In this document: positions 3,104 to 18,821 of the stretch, one piece after another | Layout: each line of letters begins with the position of its first letter | Position numbering within the stretch: position 1 is the first letter of the stretch | NCBI RefSeq assembly: GCF_044324875.1 | Contig: NZ_CP172185.1 | From: Escherichia coli | GTDB lineage: Bacteria > Pseudomonadota > Gammaproteobacteria > Enterobacterales > Enterobacteriaceae | Length of the DNA stretch: 64,000 nt | Strand: one strand, 5' to 3' | Made by a program: the position numbers and the translations under genes | Notes under the pieces: model-generated | Told to the model about the DNA's origin: nothing | The model's database searches: none | Seen by the model: the letters and a program-made list of their open reading frames with translations, nothing else

Positions 3104-3268
3104 ATGGCAAAGCCGATCATCACGCTCAATGGCCTAAAAATCGTCATTATGTTGGGAATGCTGGTCATTATTCTCTGCGGTATCCGTTTTGCCGCCGAGA
3201 TCATCGTGCCGTTTATTCTCGCATTATTTATTGCTGTTATATATAACTTATTTCACTTAACACATTGA
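3104..3268 (+). pseudogene. tqsA: tqsA 5' fragment (first ~45 codons of the AI-2 exporter), truncated by island insertion
   Basis: Translates [46 protein letters not shown] then runs into island sequence and stops after 9 more codons. Confidence 0.8.
3232..3240. repeat. attL core, left copy of the 9-bp direct repeat TGCTGTTAT
   Basis: Identical 9-mer at 18813-18821; tqsA reading frame continues across the two copies. Confidence 0.7.
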
Positions 3269-3310
3269 TTTAATTAAATAATTTACACTACAAAAAGTGC
3301 CAAAAATCGC

Positions 3311-3375
3311 AAATTAACTACACCATTAACTACACCGTTCGGCGCACTGTATGAAACAACGTGGAACAAATAGGC
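3311..3375. promoter_or_regulatory. attL-proximal arm repeats: 2x AACTACACC (11-bp period) and 2x GAAACAA/GGAACAA (10-bp period)
   Basis: Direct repeats read from sequence; related repeats near attR; approximate coordinates. Confidence 0.5.
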
Positions 3376-3554
3376 ACAAGAAATATAAAGGCGGGTAATT
3401 TTTAGGGGGCGTTAATGTCGATATGGGGATCCACATATCGAGATTGATACCTGGCTTTTTTTCCGGTTAACCTTTAATCAGGCTGGTGGGCTTTACCTGT
3501 TCTGTAGGAGTGGTCATTATGACCATTCAGCCAATGACCTTAATCAGAATTTTT

Positions 3555-7302: not shown

Positions 7303-8516
7303 TCGTCACCGCCCTTACTGTTCTTGCTGATTGTCACTTCCTGCTTCCATGCCTGGCTGAACTCGTCGCCACCTTCACGCGGCGGCATTCCCTCACGCTC
7401 ACGGGCTTCGTTCGGATTGATGATCCCGTTCTTAATCCCTTTCTCATACGTGGCGTAACGTTCGGTAGGGGTGGCGCGTAATAAATCGGCTGAATCAAAC
7501 TCAACCAGATAACGGGTACCAGGTACGGGAGAAGCCACCAGCAAAGCAGCCTTGATTTGCTGTTCGAAGTTCGCCAGCCACGGGCGCATTGTCATGGTCA
7601 GAAACGCGCGGCTTGCCTCACTGAAATTGCTGTAGGTGCTGTTGCTGTATTCCTGCAAAAAAATCGGCGAGACGTTGAACATTCGGGCGATGTCTTCAAT
7701 GGTAAAGCGACGGGAGGCCAGCCATTCAGCATCCTGATTACTCATGCCCAGCTGCTGATAGCTCATACCCCCTTCAAGGATGGGCGTTTTTCCGGCGTTT
7801 CTGGCCCCTTTGTAGCGTTCCAGTGCGGCTAATGCCTGTTTGCCCTTCACGCCGTCCAGCCATTCGCCTGACGTGATAACCCCTGCCGCCATCATGCCAT
7901 CACGCATCACGCTCGCGCCGTGGCGTTGTTGGGCCAGCCCAAGCCCCAGCGATTCGCGGCAGATGGTTACAGGTGAGCGCCCCATAAAGCCGTCATCCGT
8001 GGAGTAACGAAGGTGGAGAACCTCCCACGGTAAATAGTTGCGGGTGTTTCCGGTGTAGGCGTCAGTGATGCAGTAGCGCCAGTTATGCTCACCTGTCTGC
8101 TCCACGTTCACCGACTGCGGCGGGTAAGGATGTAAAGCCACCGGAAAACCATCACGCCCCCACTGAATAACCGCATAAGCATTACCGTTTAACAGGCAGT
8201 GGCGGATCATCATTCGCTTAAACTGGTAGGGGGTTTGCCATGCGTTCGGGCGCTCGTTGAGGATGTGATCGACCGGATGAGAATCAAGCCACTCGCGGGC
8301 CTCCTTCCCCTTCTCATTGCGTACCAGGTACAGGTAACACGGCATGGTAGCCACCGCCTCAGAGATGACCGTCACGGCGTTCATGACGGCGGGCAGTGAT
8401 TCCGCTGTCCCCGATGATACGTACTCACCCGCCCCCGTGTTCGATGTGCCCGCCAGCGCCATAAATTCATCAAGCGTCATGCTGCGCTGCTCTTTTTTTC
8501 TTCTGAAAAGCCACAT
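7299..8516 (-). CDS. portal protein (HK97 family)
   Basis: 405 aa; portal-like sequence; immediately followed by prohead protease. Confidence 0.8.
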   Translation of the reverse strand: MWLFRRKKEQRSMTLDEFMALAGTSNTGAGEYVSSGTAESLPAVMNAVTVISEAVATMPCYLYLVRNEKGKEAREWLDSHPVDHILNERPNAWQTPYQFKRMMIRHCLLNGNAYAVIQWGRDGFPVALHPYPPQSVNVEQTGEHNWRYCITDAYTGNTRNYLPWEVLHLRYSTDDGFMGRSPVTICRESLGLGLAQQRHGASVMRDGMMAAGVITSGEWLDGVKGKQALAALERYKGARNAGKTPILEGGMSYQQLGMSNQDAEWLASRRFTIEDIARMFNVSPIFLQEYSNSTYSNFSEASRAFLTMTMRPWLANFEQQIKAALLVASPVPGTRYLVEFDSADLLRATPTERYATYEKGIKNGIINPNEAREREGMPPREGGDEFSQAWKQEVTISKNSKGGDE

Positions 8517-16844: not shown

Positions 16845-17033
16845 TTAGTGAACTGCCTCGCAGCTTTCCTTCCATGCCAGAACTTCGGATAAAGACCAGC
16901 CAACGGAACGACCGCCCAGCTTACGCCGTGATGGGAATTGTCCGGCCTTTTCCAGGCGGTAGCGGCATGAGCGGCTAAGTCCTGTTAGCTTTTCGCATTC
17001 TTTTTCACGTATAAACCGATCAGTACTTAACAC
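16845..17033 (-). CDS. alpA: AlpA-family phage regulatory protein (transcriptional activator / excision factor-like)
   Basis: 62 aa; helix-turn-helix pattern matching remembered AlpA proteins of P4-like islands; adjacent to integrase. Confidence 0.85.
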   Translation of the reverse strand: MLSTDRFIREKECEKLTGLSRSCRYRLEKAGQFPSRRKLGGRSVGWSLSEVLAWKESCEAVH

Positions 17034-17226: not shown

Positions 17227-17315
17227 CACTATTTAAAGCGTTATTCGCTAATGTATAAAAAACCAGTTGAGCATTAAAAATCAGCAACTTATAAGTCTGT
17301 ATACTTTTTCGCCTC

Positions 17316-17360
17316 TTGTTCGTGGTTGTTCCACGTTGTTTCACATTGTTCGCCGTTGTA
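17316..17360. repeat. Four tandem 10-bp GAACAA-type repeats (minus-strand orientation) between int and alpA
   Basis: Reverse complement reads GCGAACAATG TGAAACAACG TGGAACAACC ACGAACAAG. Confidence 0.6.
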
Positions 17361-17407
17361 TCTGTGTGCTTATCCAGTATGCGCATACTGAAAAAACACG
17401 AAAAAAA

Positions 17408-18637
17408 TTATTTTCTTCTGGCTACTGGTAGCGTGGTTACGTTTTCATGTGCTCCCGCCAGTATCTCCAACCGCTCCACCCACATATCCAGCGCATTGCG
17501 TTTCGCATCCAGATAACGGGAATGATTATAAACTCGCTGCATTCCTGGCATCTGGTGGCCTGTAAGCTGCTCCACGACATGCGGATCAACGCCTAAATCG
17601 TTCAGCATGGTTGTAAAGGTGCGCCGGATGTCATGCAGTGACCAGTGAGGGTGTTTAAGCCTCCTGTGCGCTAATCTTCCATACTGCGATACGCTGGCCT
17701 CCTGTTTCACTTCCCCCAGCAATAAGCCCGTGTGCCTGTTCTGCTCCACCAGCTGCGTGACGAACGGCAGTATCGCTTCCGGTATGGGCCGGAATATGGC
17801 TACCTTCGTTTTGCTGTGCTCCTTCGGAACGGTCCATAGCATTTCGGTAAAATCCCACTCCCCGATCTCCGATAGCCTCAGTTCTACTGTCCTGGCTCCG
17901 AAGACAATCAGGAGGCGGATTAGTGCGACGTAGTAAGGGGAAAATATTTTTTTATCCAGCGCCTGCAATAACTCGCCCAGTTCTTTGGTGCTTAAGACAC
18001 GTTCGCTTATATCCGGTTTTTTCCCAACGTCCGCCACGTTCAGATCGTCCAGAACGTTGCTGATTGCATAGCGCCGCCTACGGCAAAACTTAAGCGCCTG
18101 TTTGCACGCCTGTAGCACGAATCCGGCAGTAACAGGCGTTCGCTTTGCCACCTGGTCAAAACAGGCCAGCCAGTGCCGTAGCTCGCATTTATCCAGCGGC
18201 ATAGCACCAATGTGCTGTATTACGTGATTATTAACTCGCCTTTTCAGGGCGATATAATCCACGCGGTTTTCCTTTACGTAAGACTCAAGCCAGTAGGTGA
18301 GCGCATCGCCAACCGTTACCGGCTTTAACGCTTCCTGTACGGCGTAATTCATCTCATGGCGTGGATTTTTCCCCTCCGCCAGCCATGCGCGACACTGGGC
18401 GGCTTTTTCCCTGGCTGCTTTCAGGCTCAGATCAGGATAATTTCCCAGCTTAATACGTTCCGGTCGTGTCTCTCTTCCCGTTCCTGCCCTGTAAGTGAAA
18501 TACCAGGTTAATATCCCTGATGTTAAATATTTCACGCTCAGATTTCCGCCATCGCTATAAAACGTGTTTTTCTCCGCTGGCTTACCATGAAGTTTCCTTA
18601 GCAAGGTATCGCTCAGTTTGTTCATTGCTCTGCTCAC
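17408..18637 (-). CDS. int: tyrosine integrase, P4 type
   Basis: 409 aa; N-terminal arm-binding domain pattern and C-terminal catalytic region (HDIRRT...Y); terminal position next to attR. Confidence 0.9.
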   Translation of the reverse strand: MSRAMNKLSDTLLRKLHGKPAEKNTFYSDGGNLSVKYLTSGILTWYFTYRAGTGRETRPERIKLGNYPDLSLKAAREKAAQCRAWLAEGKNPRHEMNYAVQEALKPVTVGDALTYWLESYVKENRVDYIALKRRVNNHVIQHIGAMPLDKCELRHWLACFDQVAKRTPVTAGFVLQACKQALKFCRRRRYAISNVLDDLNVADVGKKPDISERVLSTKELGELLQALDKKIFSPYYVALIRLLIVFGARTVELRLSEIGEWDFTEMLWTVPKEHSKTKVAIFRPIPEAILPFVTQLVEQNRHTGLLLGEVKQEASVSQYGRLAHRRLKHPHWSLHDIRRTFTTMLNDLGVDPHVVEQLTGHQMPGMQRVYNHSRYLDAKRNALDMWVERLEILAGAHENVTTLPVARRK

Positions 18638-18661
18638 GCTTTACCCCTTGTTTACGAAAAA

Positions 18662-18790
18662 GTGACTACACCAGTGACTACACCGATCGTTGCACAAAGG
18701 GCTACAACGTGAAACAAGCTGGAACAAGAAAAATCACAAATTTGTTTATAATCAAAAACATAATGAACAAACTGAAACATTATGAAACGG
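18662..18790. promoter_or_regulatory. attR-proximal arm repeats and int promoter region: 2x GTGACTACACC, then GAAACAA/GGAACAA and TGAACAAAC/TGAAAC repeats
   Basis: Direct repeats read from sequence immediately upstream of int and inside attR arm. Confidence 0.5.
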
Positions 18791-18812
18791 CAAAAAACAC
18801 TAATTGATAAAA

Positions 18813-18821
18813 TGCTGTTAT
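18813..18821. repeat. attR core, right copy of TGCTGTTAT
   Basis: Identical to 3232-3240; tqsA sequence resumes. Confidence 0.7.

What the first reader, a model, noticed from the sequence alone, without database searches (positions are those of the whole stretch)
3311..3375. Two families of short direct repeats in both att arms (ACTACACC pairs and 10-bp periodic GAACAA units)
About 75-135 bp inside attL there are two AACTACACC repeats (11-bp spacing) followed by GAAACAACG TGGAACAAA. Inside attR (18662-18790), just upstream of int, there are two GTGACTACACC repeats, then CAACGTGAAACAAGCTGGAACAAG and a further TGAACAAAC TGAAACATTA TGAAACGG run. In the circular attP these would flank the core on both sides, the arrangement expected for arm-type integrase sites and for binding sites of a recombination directionality factor. 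Which family binds which protein is not deducible from sequence.
Basis: seen in the sequence. Interest (0 to 1): 0.45.

Follow-up and report, generated by a model that had tools for sequence, protein, structure and literature searches.

The report
Integrase and AlpA sites in PICI ends
The two repeat families are real and mark the probable docking sites for the integrase and for the small regulator AlpA of a 15.6-kb phage satellite inserted in E. coli tqsA. This kind of recombination-site architecture is well known, so the result is a useful map, not a surprise.

Summary
The window holds a 15.6-kb capsid-forming PICI (EcCIEDL933 family) inserted in tqsA, with a 7-bp crossover TGCTGTT at 3232-3238 and 18813-18819.

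Each arm carries one 76-nt composite module in direct orientation. It consists of a 12-bp (not 11-bp) tandem doublet nnnnACTACACC x2, followed by a phased RAACAA array of 4-5 units.

- **Doublets.** They occur only in the att arms. They sit at fixed distances from the crossover (about 90 and 142 bp) in five integrase lineages, and their sequence changes with the integrase lineage. They are the positional equivalent of the "doubled motif" reported in 2023 for helper-embedded PICIs. They are most likely Int arm-type sites.
- **RAACAA arrays.** They are not att-specific. The same phased arrays lie upstream of alpA and upstream of the capsid operon, and nowhere else in the 64 kb or in 217 kb of DNA flanking related islands. 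AlpA is known to activate its own promoter in EcCICFT073, which carries the same array. They are most likely AlpA boxes that serve both excision and transcription, as with Apl, Cox and Vis.

No binding has been shown. I rate this a new member of a known kind, of moderate interest.

The parts
3232..3238 (+). attL copy of the 7-bp crossover (overlap) TGCTGTT. The identity block TGCTGTTAT is 3232-3240, and the candidate core-type half-site ATATATAA follows at 3239-3246.
   Evidence: The host tqsA match ends at 3240. The same 9-mer occurs at 18813-18821. The joined attP is seen in L136. The overlap was inferred by analogy with the perfect inverted repeat TGATAAAA-TATGTCC-TTTTATCA in the roxA-type attP.
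3258..3270 (-). IHF-consensus match AATCAATGTGTTA between the core and the attL doublet
   Evidence: It is one of only 5 matches to WATCAANNNNTTR in 64 kb. The motif is kept in L002/L003 attL. Function is inferred only.
3313..3336 (+). attL-arm doublet D_L: ATTAACTACACC x2 (12-bp tandem). Proposed pair of Int arm-type sites.
   Evidence: Its centre is 91.5 bp from the overlap centre, and 88.5-91.5 bp in nine related islands.
3344..3389 (+). attL-arm phased array (GCACTG, GAAACAA, GGAACAA, GGCACAA, ... every 10 bp). Proposed AlpA boxes.
10501..10529 (+). Internal phased array GTGAACAACC TGGAACAACC ACGAACAAAT. It lies between the capsid operon (minus strand) and ORF 10603-11076 (plus strand), and is directly followed by a promoter-like site at 10533-10561.
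   Evidence: It is conserved in all seven capsid-forming islands examined, whatever their Int or int-adjacent AlpA class.
16845..17033 (-). alpA (62 aa, AlpA-family winged-helix regulator/excisionase)
   Evidence: PF05930, E 5e-18. PHROG 2790 'excisionase and transcriptional regulator'. 95% identical to EcCICFT073 AlpA.
17314..17362 (-). Five-unit phased array (TACAAC, CGAACAA, GAAACAA, GGAACAA, CGAACAA; exact 10-bp period). It lies 46 bp after the int stop and about 280 bp upstream of alpA. Proposed AlpA autoregulatory operator.
   Evidence: It has the highest array score in the window (24 of 24). It is present in L001-L003, L126 and EcCICFT073.
17408..18637 (-). int (409 aa tyrosine integrase with an N-terminal arm-binding domain)
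   Evidence: PF13356, E 5e-18, and PF00589. The N-domain matches the solved CP4-like integrase N-domain 3jtz.
18661..18684 (+). attR-arm doublet D_R: AGTGACTACACC x2, 24-47 bp upstream of the int start codon. Proposed pair of Int arm-type sites.
   Evidence: Its centre is 141.5 bp from the overlap centre, and 141.5-144.5 bp in relatives.
18692..18739 (+). attR array A (GCACAA, CTACAA, GAAACAA, GGAACAA, ATCACAA; 10-bp period), between D_R and the core
   Evidence: L003 lacks exactly one 10-bp unit here.
18764..18800 (+). attR array B (TGAACAA, TGAAACA, TGAAACG, ...), core-proximal and degenerate
   Evidence: The GAAC cores are kept in all eight aligned arms.
18805..18819 (+). Candidate core-type Int half-site TGATAAAA (18805-18812) plus the attR copy of the overlap TGCTGTT (18813-18819)
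   Evidence: The tqsA match resumes at 18813. AACACTAAnTGAnAAA is invariant next to the core in islands with five different cores.

Best explanation
The repeats are the accessory protein-binding sites of the attP of a capsid-forming PICI.

**Doublets (inferred).** The four ACTACACC half-sites, one 12-bp tandem pair per arm, are arm-type sites for the N-terminal arm-binding domains of an Int tetramer. The tetramer's catalytic and core-binding domains act at the 7-bp overlap TGCTGTT. The fixed, asymmetric spacing (about 90 bp on one side, about 142 bp on the other, 233 bp between pairs) sets the folding of the intasome, probably helped by IHF.

**Arrays (inferred).** The RAACAA units spaced exactly one helical turn apart are boxes for AlpA. 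AlpA would bind head-to-tail and cooperatively, as other winged-helix directionality factors do.
- In the int-proximal arm, the arrays fill the DNA between the Int pair and the core. AlpA binding there would bend the arm and favour excision.
- The same boxes upstream of alpA would mediate AlpA's known positive autoregulation.
- The boxes upstream of the capsid operon would couple late-gene expression to induction.

**What is shown:**
- the sequences, their statistics, their exclusivity to islands, their conserved geometry, and their co-variation with Int lineage;
- the presence of Int and AlpA domains;
- real joined attP molecules.

**What is taken from the literature:**
- AlpA is needed for induction and excision and activates PalpA in EcCICFT073.
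- Directionality factors bind phased direct repeats at att sites and at promoters.

Which protein binds which repeat, and every mechanistic consequence, is inferred.
For: **1. Non-randomness and exclusivity.**
- ACTACACC is found 5 times against 0.87 expected.
- Phased RAACAA arrays occur at only five island sites in 64 kb, against 0.05-0.14 expected.
- Across 11 E. coli loci there are 33 arrays inside islands (147.5 kb) and none in 217.5 kb of flanking DNA.

**2. Right proteins are present.** Int has PF13356 and AlpA has PF05930. AlpA matches the PHROG family 'excisionase and transcriptional regulator'.

**3. The attP is real.** L136 and L211 carry the attR arm, core and attL arm joined.

**4. 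Geometry is conserved.** The core-to-D_L distance is 88.5-91.5 bp and the D_R-to-core distance is 141.5-144.5 bp in islands at five chromosomal sites plus a helper-embedded PICI. A fis-site PICI gives the same 233-bp doublet-to-doublet distance. The one exception differs by exactly one 10-bp unit.

**5. Doublets follow Int, not AlpA.**
- L127 and L128 have near-identical AlpA but different Int N-domains, and different doublets (ACTACACC versus GACCACAC).
- Further Int lineages have GCAATACA (L131), GACTGCAC (L218) and TTTGGACCA (L216) at the same place.
- Int beta-strand residues F-T-Y-R, F-R-Y-R, F-F-Y-R and F-T-F-R track the doublet sequence.

**6. Arrays behave like operators of a regulator.**
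- They occur upstream of alpA and of the late operon as well as in the att arms.
- EcCICFT073, in which AlpA was shown to activate PalpA and to trigger int-dependent excision (PMC6092414), has the same arrays in both arms and a 6-unit array upstream of alpA.

**7. Split case.** L131, whose int-adjacent AlpA-like protein is only 48% identical, has no threshold-passing array in either att arm (attL has none at all). It keeps the late-operon array and a second AlpA-like gene that is 60% identical.

**8. Footprint.** Across eight diverged attR arms, 29 of 51 motif-core columns are invariant against 33 of 101 other columns (p = 0.004).

**9. Precedent.**
- Apl, Cox, Vis and TorI bind direct repeats one helical turn apart at att sites and at promoters (PMC7498355).
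- A doubled 12-bp motif in two co-oriented copies round the core was reported for HE-PICIs and tentatively assigned to Int arm domains or AlpA (PMC10111431).
Against: - No binding data exist for either protein on these sequences.
- In EcCICFT073, AlpA had no effect on a Pint-lacZ fusion (PMC6092414). Arrays A and B lie in the int upstream region, so an effect might have been expected if AlpA binds there. The extent of the cloned fragment is unknown to me.
- The attL-arm array lies distal to the doublet, not between the doublet and the core. A simple bending role does not explain it.
- AlpA class 1 and class 2 islands use very similar units (TGRAACAA versus CGAACAA), and the late-operon array mixes both. 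The AlpA-to-array co-variation is therefore weak.
- Many of the compared arms are related by descent, so the conservation statistics are not independent. The motif columns were also defined on the window sequence.
- Elements with an extra gene between int and alpA lack the array upstream of alpA.
- No convincing sigma-70 promoter for int or alpA was found next to the arrays.
Confidence: 0.62

Rival explanations
1. The assignment is the other way round. The phased RAACAA arrays are the Int arm-type sites, and the ACTACACC pairs are bound by AlpA (or by AlpA dimers).
For: The published note on the equivalent HE-PICI doublet leaves AlpA open as a possible binder. Lambda P'1-P'3 arm sites are also closely spaced direct repeats (my own knowledge of lambda, not checked here).
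Against: - The arrays occur outside att, upstream of alpA and of the late operon, where an integrase arm domain has no known role.
- The doublets change when Int changes while AlpA stays the same (L127 versus L128).
- The doublets are kept when AlpA changes from class 1 to class 2 (W versus L004/L127).
- L131 keeps its doublets, but no threshold-passing array remains in its att arms.
Confidence: 0.1
2. The arrays are recognised by a protein other than AlpA. Candidates are a helper-phage-encoded inducer of alpA, another island protein, or a host nucleoid protein. Alternatively, they act mainly as intrinsically curved DNA. The doublets are still Int sites.
For: - alpA transcription is switched on by an unidentified helper-phage function (PMC6092414), which needs a target upstream of alpA.
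- The late-operon array is identical in islands with three different int-adjacent AlpA classes.
- AlpA did not affect Pint.
- A-rich units phased at 10 bp can curve DNA.
Against: - The arrays sit beside the Int doublets in both att arms, which fits a recombination cofactor encoded by the island.
- AlpA is the only RDF-like protein the island encodes.
- The invariant C inside AACAA and the R before it argue for base-specific reading, not A-tract curvature.
- AlpA autoactivation also needs a site upstream of alpA.
- L131 keeps a class-1-like AlpA paralogue that could read the late array.
Confidence: 0.2
3. The repeats are a non-functional relic. A 76-nt segment was duplicated onto both ends during the island's history and is simply inherited.
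For: The two modules are 74% identical over their whole length, spacer included. Most of the compared islands are close relatives.
Against: - The motif cores stay invariant while spacers and flanks diverge.
- The distances to the core are held within 3 bp in lineages whose Int proteins are only 41-75% identical.
- The one length change is exactly 10 bp.
- The same design with different doublet sequences recurs in distant elements (L216, L218, L131).
- Arrays without doublets occur at two promoter-proximal sites.
Confidence: 0.05

Closest known systems
Doubled motif tgTGTATTGCan x2 in the attP of helper-embedded PICIs (NAR Genom Bioinform 2023, PMC10111431, section 'Attachment sites')
   Same: It is a 12-bp unit doubled in tandem, with two co-oriented copies, one in each attP arm, at fixed and unequal distances from the crossover. 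It lies next to a P4-like integrase and an AlpA gene. With one ruler, an HE-PICI (L131) gives 88.5 and 144.5 bp, and the window island gives 91.5 and 141.5 bp.
   Different: The sequence differs: GGTGTAGT here against TGTATTGC on the int-sense strand, matching at 5 of 8 core positions. That paper states the motif was not found in other PICIs, including fis PICIs. Here a sequence variant sits at the same position in tqsA, roxA, cspD, yifB, rcnR and fis PICIs. The paper does not describe the adjoining phased arrays.
Phage 186 Apl and P2 Cox operators (dual-purpose directionality factor and transcription regulator; PMC7498355)
   Same: They are short direct repeats spaced 10-11 bp apart, in arrays of 5-7. 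They occur both at attP next to the Int arm sites and at a promoter region far from att. They are read by a small helix-turn-helix protein that is also the excisionase.
   Different: Apl and Cox repress the lytic/lysogenic switch promoters. AlpA of PICIs is an activator of its own promoter (PMC6092414). The box sequences are unrelated. Here arrays lie in both arms, and binding has not been shown.
Lambda attP (arm-type sites P1, P2, P'1-P'3; Xis sites X1, X1.5, X2; IHF sites; PMC4880445)
   Same: Both have a heterobivalent integrase with arm sites in both arms that differ from the core sequence. Both have directionality-factor sites as head-to-tail repeats between an arm site and the core in the int-proximal arm. 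An IHF-consensus site lies in the other arm.
   Different: Here there are four arm half-sites as two tight tandem pairs, not five dispersed sites. The RDF-like arrays are longer (4-5 units) and present in both arms. The integrase belongs to the P4/CP4 group (PF13356 N-domain).
P4 Vis and KplE1 TorI (RDF sites overlapping the int promoter at att; as summarised in PMC7498355)
   Same: The int gene abuts att, so the arm sites lie in the int upstream region. The small AlpA/Vis-type protein acts in excision and in transcription control.
   Different: In P4 and KplE1 the RDF represses int. For EcCICFT073, AlpA showed no effect on Pint (PMC6092414). The int promoter of this island has not been located.
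EcCICFT073 / EcCIEDL933 AlpA circuit (PMC6092414; bioRxiv 10.1101/2022.09.08.507074)
   Same: The island is of the same family. Its gene order is that of the near-identical L001 and of the roxA-site cf-PICI L002. Its AlpA is 95% identical to that of EcCICFT073. EcCICFT073 has the same doublets and arrays.
   Different: Those papers establish the genetics (alpA and int are required; AlpA autoactivates) but define no binding sites. The sites proposed here are new annotations.

Membership tests
Arm-type binding sites of a heterobivalent tyrosine integrase | The cognate integrase carries a separate N-terminal arm-DNA-binding domain | tested here: met
   PF13356 Arm-DNA-bind_3, E 5.3e-18, residues 8-95. 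It matches the solved CP4-like integrase N-domain 3jtz.
Arm-type binding sites of a heterobivalent tyrosine integrase | A repeated sequence unrelated to the core, present in both arms of attP | tested here: met
   ACTACACC x2 at 3313-3336 and 18661-18684. Both flank the core in the joined attP contig L136.
Arm-type binding sites of a heterobivalent tyrosine integrase | Position relative to the crossover is conserved among relatives, and the sequence co-varies with the integrase | tested here: met
   Distances are 88.5-91.5 and 141.5-144.5 bp in nine islands, with 232-233 bp between pairs in five Int lineages. The doublet sequence differs between Int lineages that share the same AlpA.
Arm-type binding sites of a heterobivalent tyrosine integrase | Bound by the Int N-domain and required for recombination | not testable with these tools
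   This needs EMSA or footprinting and att-site mutagenesis.
Binding sites of a winged-helix recombination directionality factor (Xis/Cox/Apl/Vis/TorI type) | The element encodes a small wHTH excisionase-type protein | tested here: met
   AlpA, 62 aa, PF05930, E 5e-18. PHROG 2790 'excisionase and transcriptional regulator'. PDB 8c3t, an AlpA family protein.
Binding sites of a winged-helix recombination directionality factor (Xis/Cox/Apl/Vis/TorI type) | Two or more direct repeats about one helical turn apart within an att arm | tested here: met
   Exact 10-bp phasing, with 3-5 units in attL and two arrays in attR. Chance expectation is 0.05-0.14 per window.
Binding sites of a winged-helix recombination directionality factor (Xis/Cox/Apl/Vis/TorI type) | For the dual-function subgroup: the same boxes occur at a promoter that the protein regulates | tested here: inconclusive
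   The same arrays lie upstream of alpA and of the late operon. AlpA activates PalpA in EcCICFT073, which has the array. The promoters themselves and the dependence on the array are not established.
Binding sites of a winged-helix recombination directionality factor (Xis/Cox/Apl/Vis/TorI type) | Cooperative binding and bending by the RDF, and stimulation of excision through these sites | not testable with these tools
   This needs biochemistry and excision assays.
HE-PICI doubled attP motif (PMC10111431) | A 12-bp unit doubled in tandem, with two co-oriented copies at fixed unequal distances either side of the crossover | tested here: met
   An HE-PICI measured with the same ruler (L131) gives the same geometry.
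HE-PICI doubled attP motif (PMC10111431) | Core sequence TGTATTGC | tested here: not met
   The window has GGTGTAGT on the int-sense strand. The core TGTAGTTA matches TGTATTGC at 5 of 8 positions. It is therefore a sequence variant of the same architectural element, not a member by sequence.
Capsid-forming PICI (EcCIEDL933 family), as context | int, alpA and a replication gene plus own capsid, protease, portal, connectors, HNH, TerS and TerL. No tail or lysis genes. About 15 kb, at a site not used by prophages. | tested here: met
   RefSeq annotation of the 95-97% identical island L001 at the same tqsA site. Pfam hits for int, alpA, PerC and the AAA_25 replication protein. Island length is 15,581 bp.

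The most novel reading that the evidence does not exclude
The phased RAACAA arrays form the complete operator set of AlpA. One small filament-forming winged-helix protein would then read the same boxes at both att arms, at its own promoter and at the capsid-operon control region. In that way it would time excision, self-amplification and late-gene expression of capsid-forming PICIs. The Int arm-site pairs, held 233 bp apart, would be a lineage-specific 'address' whose specificity is set by one or two beta-strand residues (F-T-Y-R, F-R-Y-R, F-F-Y-R). This would give the first defined cis-regulatory map for Gram-negative PICI induction.
Probability: 0.4. Interest if true: 0.5.

Novelty: new member of a known kind. 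Interest (0 to 1): 0.35.

Why it matters
Gram-negative PICIs, including the capsid-forming family that moves between species, are known to need Int and AlpA. No binding site for either protein was defined in any paper I found. A sequence-level map gives direct targets for footprinting, reporter assays and mutagenesis. The map covers four Int half-sites at fixed geometry and AlpA-type boxes at the att arms, at PalpA and at the late operon. It would also explain how one protein can link excision to transcription. The map extends a motif thought to be restricted to helper-embedded PICIs to the wider PICI integrase clade. It also offers a small natural series of paired Int-residue and arm-site changes for studying arm-site specificity. 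The design is a standard one for integrative elements, so it adds detail, not a new principle.

Tried and rejected
- **Exact-pattern scan of IMG/VR for ACTACACCNNNNACTACACC.** It returned 120 stretches, but only nine carried close relatives of this island's Int or AlpA (a tenth had only a 24%-identity Int match). The rest are unrelated occurrences. The bare pattern is therefore not diagnostic outside the island context.
- **Int-alignment scan of IMG/VR.** It kept only relatives at 76% identity or more, and many were cut at the int start. It was useful mainly for the two joined attP contigs.
- **Word-based AlpA homologue search.** It found only 19 proteins. Four were followed to contigs.
- **Using TGRAACAA (AlpA class 1) versus CGAACAA (class 2) as co-variation evidence.** I rejected it as weak, because class 1 arrays contain CGAACAA units and the late-operon array mixes both.
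- **Sigma-70 consensus scans.** They gave no convincing int or alpA promoter next to the arrays. Only a promoter-like site abuts the internal array.
- **Rfam scan of the island.** No RNA family overlaps the repeats, so an RNA-element reading was dropped.
- **Replication iterons.** I considered and rejected this for the arrays. A different repeat family (CCCCACT, 12662-12875) sits by the replication gene.
- **IHF sites.** Only one strict consensus match lies in the arms. The conserved ATCAA in the attR arm does not meet the consensus.

Full report
**What is in the window.**
- The finding lies at the left end of a 15,581-bp island inserted in tqsA. Nearly every complete E. coli genome matches the window up to 3240 and again from 18813, with an intact tqsA in most.
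- The 9-mer TGCTGTTAT is present at both junctions.
- The island has int (17408-18637, minus strand; PF13356 arm-binding domain plus PF00589), alpA (16845-17033, minus strand; PF05930), a PerC-like gene and an AAA_25 replication protein.
- A 95-97% identical island at the same site in strain TW08637 is annotated with major capsid, prohead protease, portal, connectors, HNH, and small and large terminase.
- It is therefore a capsid-forming PICI of the EcCIEDL933 family (bioRxiv 10.1101/2022.09.08.507074).

**Check of the observation.**
- ACTACACC occurs five times in 64 kb against 0.87 expected. Four of these are the two tandem pairs.
- The pairs have a 12-bp period, not 11 bp.
- The repeat finder shows that doublet and GAACAA units form one 76-nt module. 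It is present in direct orientation in both arms (3311-3386 versus 18659-18734, 74% identity).
- I scored every position of the window, on both strands, for RAACAA hexamers at exact 10-bp spacing. Only five places pass, all in the island:
  - attL arm, 3344-3389;
  - an internal site, 10503-10528;
  - the int-alpA spacer, 17306-17371 (minus strand, a perfect 24 of 24 over four units);
  - attR array A, 18692-18737;
  - attR array B, 18765-18800.
- Shuffled sequence gives 0.05-0.14 such places. The GAACAA family is thus real, but not att-specific.

**The attP is real and its core can be defined.**
- Two metagenomic viral contigs carry the attR arm, core and attL arm joined. L136 is the tqsA type and L211 the cspD type. 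These islands therefore excise at the deduced site.
- In the roxA-site relative, the reconstructed attP reads TGATAAAA-TATGTCC-TTTTATCA. This is a perfect inverted repeat round 7 bp.
- By analogy, the overlap in the window is TGCTGTT (3232-3238; 18813-18819), with TGATAAAA (18805-18812) as the left core-type half-site.
- The segment AACACTAAnTGAnAAA next to the core is invariant in islands with five different cores.

**Comparative anatomy.** I collected related islands from E. coli genomes at the following sites:
- tqsA, roxA, cspD, yifB and rcnR;
- a helper-embedded island inside a Stx1d prophage terminase gene;
- EcCICFT073 itself;
- more distant elements from metagenome contigs.

All of them have a tandem doublet directly upstream of int. 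Wherever the far end could be read, it has a second, co-oriented doublet.

Measured with one ruler, the geometry is as follows:
- The overlap-to-D_L distance is 88.5-91.5 bp and the D_R-to-overlap distance is 141.5-144.5 bp in nine islands.
- The pair-to-pair distance in attP is 232-233 bp in five Int lineages.
- The only deviation (L003) lacks exactly one 10-bp unit of array A.

The doublet sequence differs between Int lineages:

| Doublet core | Islands |
|---|---|
| ACTACACC | window, roxA, cspD, yifB, one fis PICI |
| GACCACAC | rcnR type |
| GCAATACA | helper-embedded type |
| GACTGCAC | another fis PICI |
| TTTGGACCA | a GC-rich distant element |

**Which protein reads which repeat.** Two contrasts are informative.
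- L127 and L128 have almost the same AlpA but Int N-domains of different lineages. Their doublets differ while their arrays are alike.
- The window and L004/L127 have the same doublet but AlpA proteins only 58% identical.

The doublets therefore follow Int. A beta-strand motif of the Int N-domain tracks the doublet sequence:
- F-T-Y-R goes with ACTACACC, even in the otherwise diverged fis-PICI Int.
- F-T-F-R goes with ACTGCAC.
- F-R-Y-R goes with GACCACAC.
- F-F-Y-R goes with CAATACAC.

This is suggestive only, from a handful of lineages.

The arrays behave like the operators of a regulator.
- Besides the att arms, they lie 46 bp after the int stop and about 280 bp upstream of alpA.
- They also lie upstream of the capsid operon. 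There the last unit abuts a promoter-like TTTACA-17-TAAACT on the plus strand, ahead of an unassigned 157-aa ORF.
- Across 11 E. coli loci, 33 arrays were found, all inside islands. None lay in 217.5 kb of flanking chromosome or prophage DNA.
- The helper-embedded island L131 has an int-adjacent AlpA-like protein only 48% identical to the window's. It has no threshold-passing array in either att arm (attL has none at all). It keeps the late-operon array and a second AlpA-like gene that is 60% identical.

**Link to experiments in the literature.**
- In EcCICFT073, alpA and int are essential for transfer. AlpA over-expression causes int-dependent excision and replication. AlpA activates its own promoter but not a Pint fusion (PMC6092414).
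- EcCICFT073 has the same doublets, the same arm arrays and a six-unit array upstream of alpA.
- AlpA acts genetically as an excisionase in CP4So (PMC5148205).
- Directionality factors such as Apl, Cox, Vis and TorI bind direct repeats one helical turn apart. Several of them use the same boxes at att and at promoters (PMC7498355).
- For helper-embedded PICIs, a doubled motif tgTGTATTGCan x2 was reported. It occurs in two co-oriented copies at fixed distances round the core. [quoted passage not shown] The ACTACACC pairs are the positional equivalent in another Int lineage.
- None of the papers I could search defines an AlpA or Int binding site in a PICI.

**Most likely mechanism (inferred).**
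- Four Int protomers bind the core through their C-terminal domains and bind the four ACTACACC half-sites through their N-domains.
- The A/T-rich spacers, with one strict IHF consensus at 3258-3270, allow the arms to fold back.
- AlpA polymerises head-to-tail on the RAACAA arrays. In the int-proximal arm this bends the 140 bp between the Int pair and the core, which favours the excisive complex.
- Upstream of alpA, AlpA binding gives positive feedback. Upstream of the capsid operon, it ties late expression to induction.

**Points against, or unexplained.**
- There are no binding data.
- AlpA had no effect on Pint in EcCICFT073.
- The attL array lies beyond the doublet, not between the doublet and the core.
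- The array units of AlpA classes 1 and 2 are too alike to count as co-variation.
- Islands with an extra gene between int and alpA have palindromes (GTGATATCAC x2) instead of the array upstream of alpA.
- The invariance enrichment in motif cores (29 of 51 against 33 of 101 columns, p = 0.004) rests on related sequences and on motif columns defined from the window.

**Rivals.**
- Reversed assignment: about 0.1.
- Arrays read by another protein or acting as curved DNA: about 0.2.
- A functionless duplication: about 0.05.

The evidence for and against each is given in the rival entries.

**Verdict.**
The protein assignment can be argued from sequence.
- The design is the classical one for heterobivalent integrases with a dual-purpose directionality factor. 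I therefore file it as a new member of a known kind.
- Its practical value is as the first site map for the Int/AlpA module of Gram-negative PICIs.

Noticed in passing
window 15472-15559 (-): A C4 antisense RNA (Rfam RF01695, 72.3 bits against a gathering score of 45) lies in the Icd-like zone of the island. This is the P1/P7-type immunity RNA. It fits the 'immunity repressor RNAs' mentioned for PICI Bro zones in PMC10111431.
   Followed up: no
window 12662-12875: There are direct repeats rich in CCCCACT (TTTTGCTCCCCACTTTTT x3 at spacings of 83-85 bp, plus a 46-nt pair). They lie immediately next to the AAA_25/RepA-like gene 12873-14279 (-). They are probably replication-origin iterons and are unrelated to the att repeats.
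   Followed up: no
window 17408-18660 versus L002 16109-17365; attP cores: The tqsA-type and roxA-type integrases are 92-100% identical, except in their first 50 residues (70%) and the 5' leader. The two attPs are the same outside a block of about 30 bp round the core. What changes the core specificity is not obvious, because the core-binding and catalytic domains barely differ.
   Followed up: partly
L136 (about 1-300) and L211 (about 1-280): These IMG/VR metagenome contigs carry the joined attP of the tqsA-type and cspD-type islands: attR arm, core and attL arm are contiguous. They represent excised, circular or concatemeric forms sampled in nature.
   Followed up: partly
L003 17351-17495: This roxA-site PICI lacks exactly one 10-bp GAACAA unit of attR array A. 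Its doublet-to-core distance drops from 141.5 to 131.5 bp, which keeps the helical phase.
   Followed up: yes
L128 16164-16257; L218 2385-2477; L219 2344-2436: Islands with an extra ORF between int and alpA have two palindromes, (A)GTGATATCAC(T), directly upstream of alpA in place of the phased array. This suggests a different control of alpA, perhaps by a repressor.
   Followed up: no
window 10603-11076 (+): This 157-aa ORF has no Pfam or PHROG match. It is on the opposite strand to almost all island genes and lies behind the internal array and a promoter-like site. Related ORFs sit at the same place in L127 and L128, but the ORF is absent from L001, L002, L126 and L131, where the array remains.
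   Followed up: partly
L131 (NZ_CP027447.1 1375205-1409293): This is a capsid-forming PICI inserted inside the large terminase gene of an Stx1d prophage, so it is helper-embedded. It has two AlpA-like genes in tandem after int. Its doublets are GCAATACA x2.
   Followed up: partly
L216 about 7440-7510: A GC-rich, distantly related int-alpA element has TTTGGACCA x2 (11-bp period) followed by GAAACAG x2 (10-bp period) directly upstream of int. The doublet-plus-array design therefore extends well beyond E. coli PICIs.
   Followed up: no
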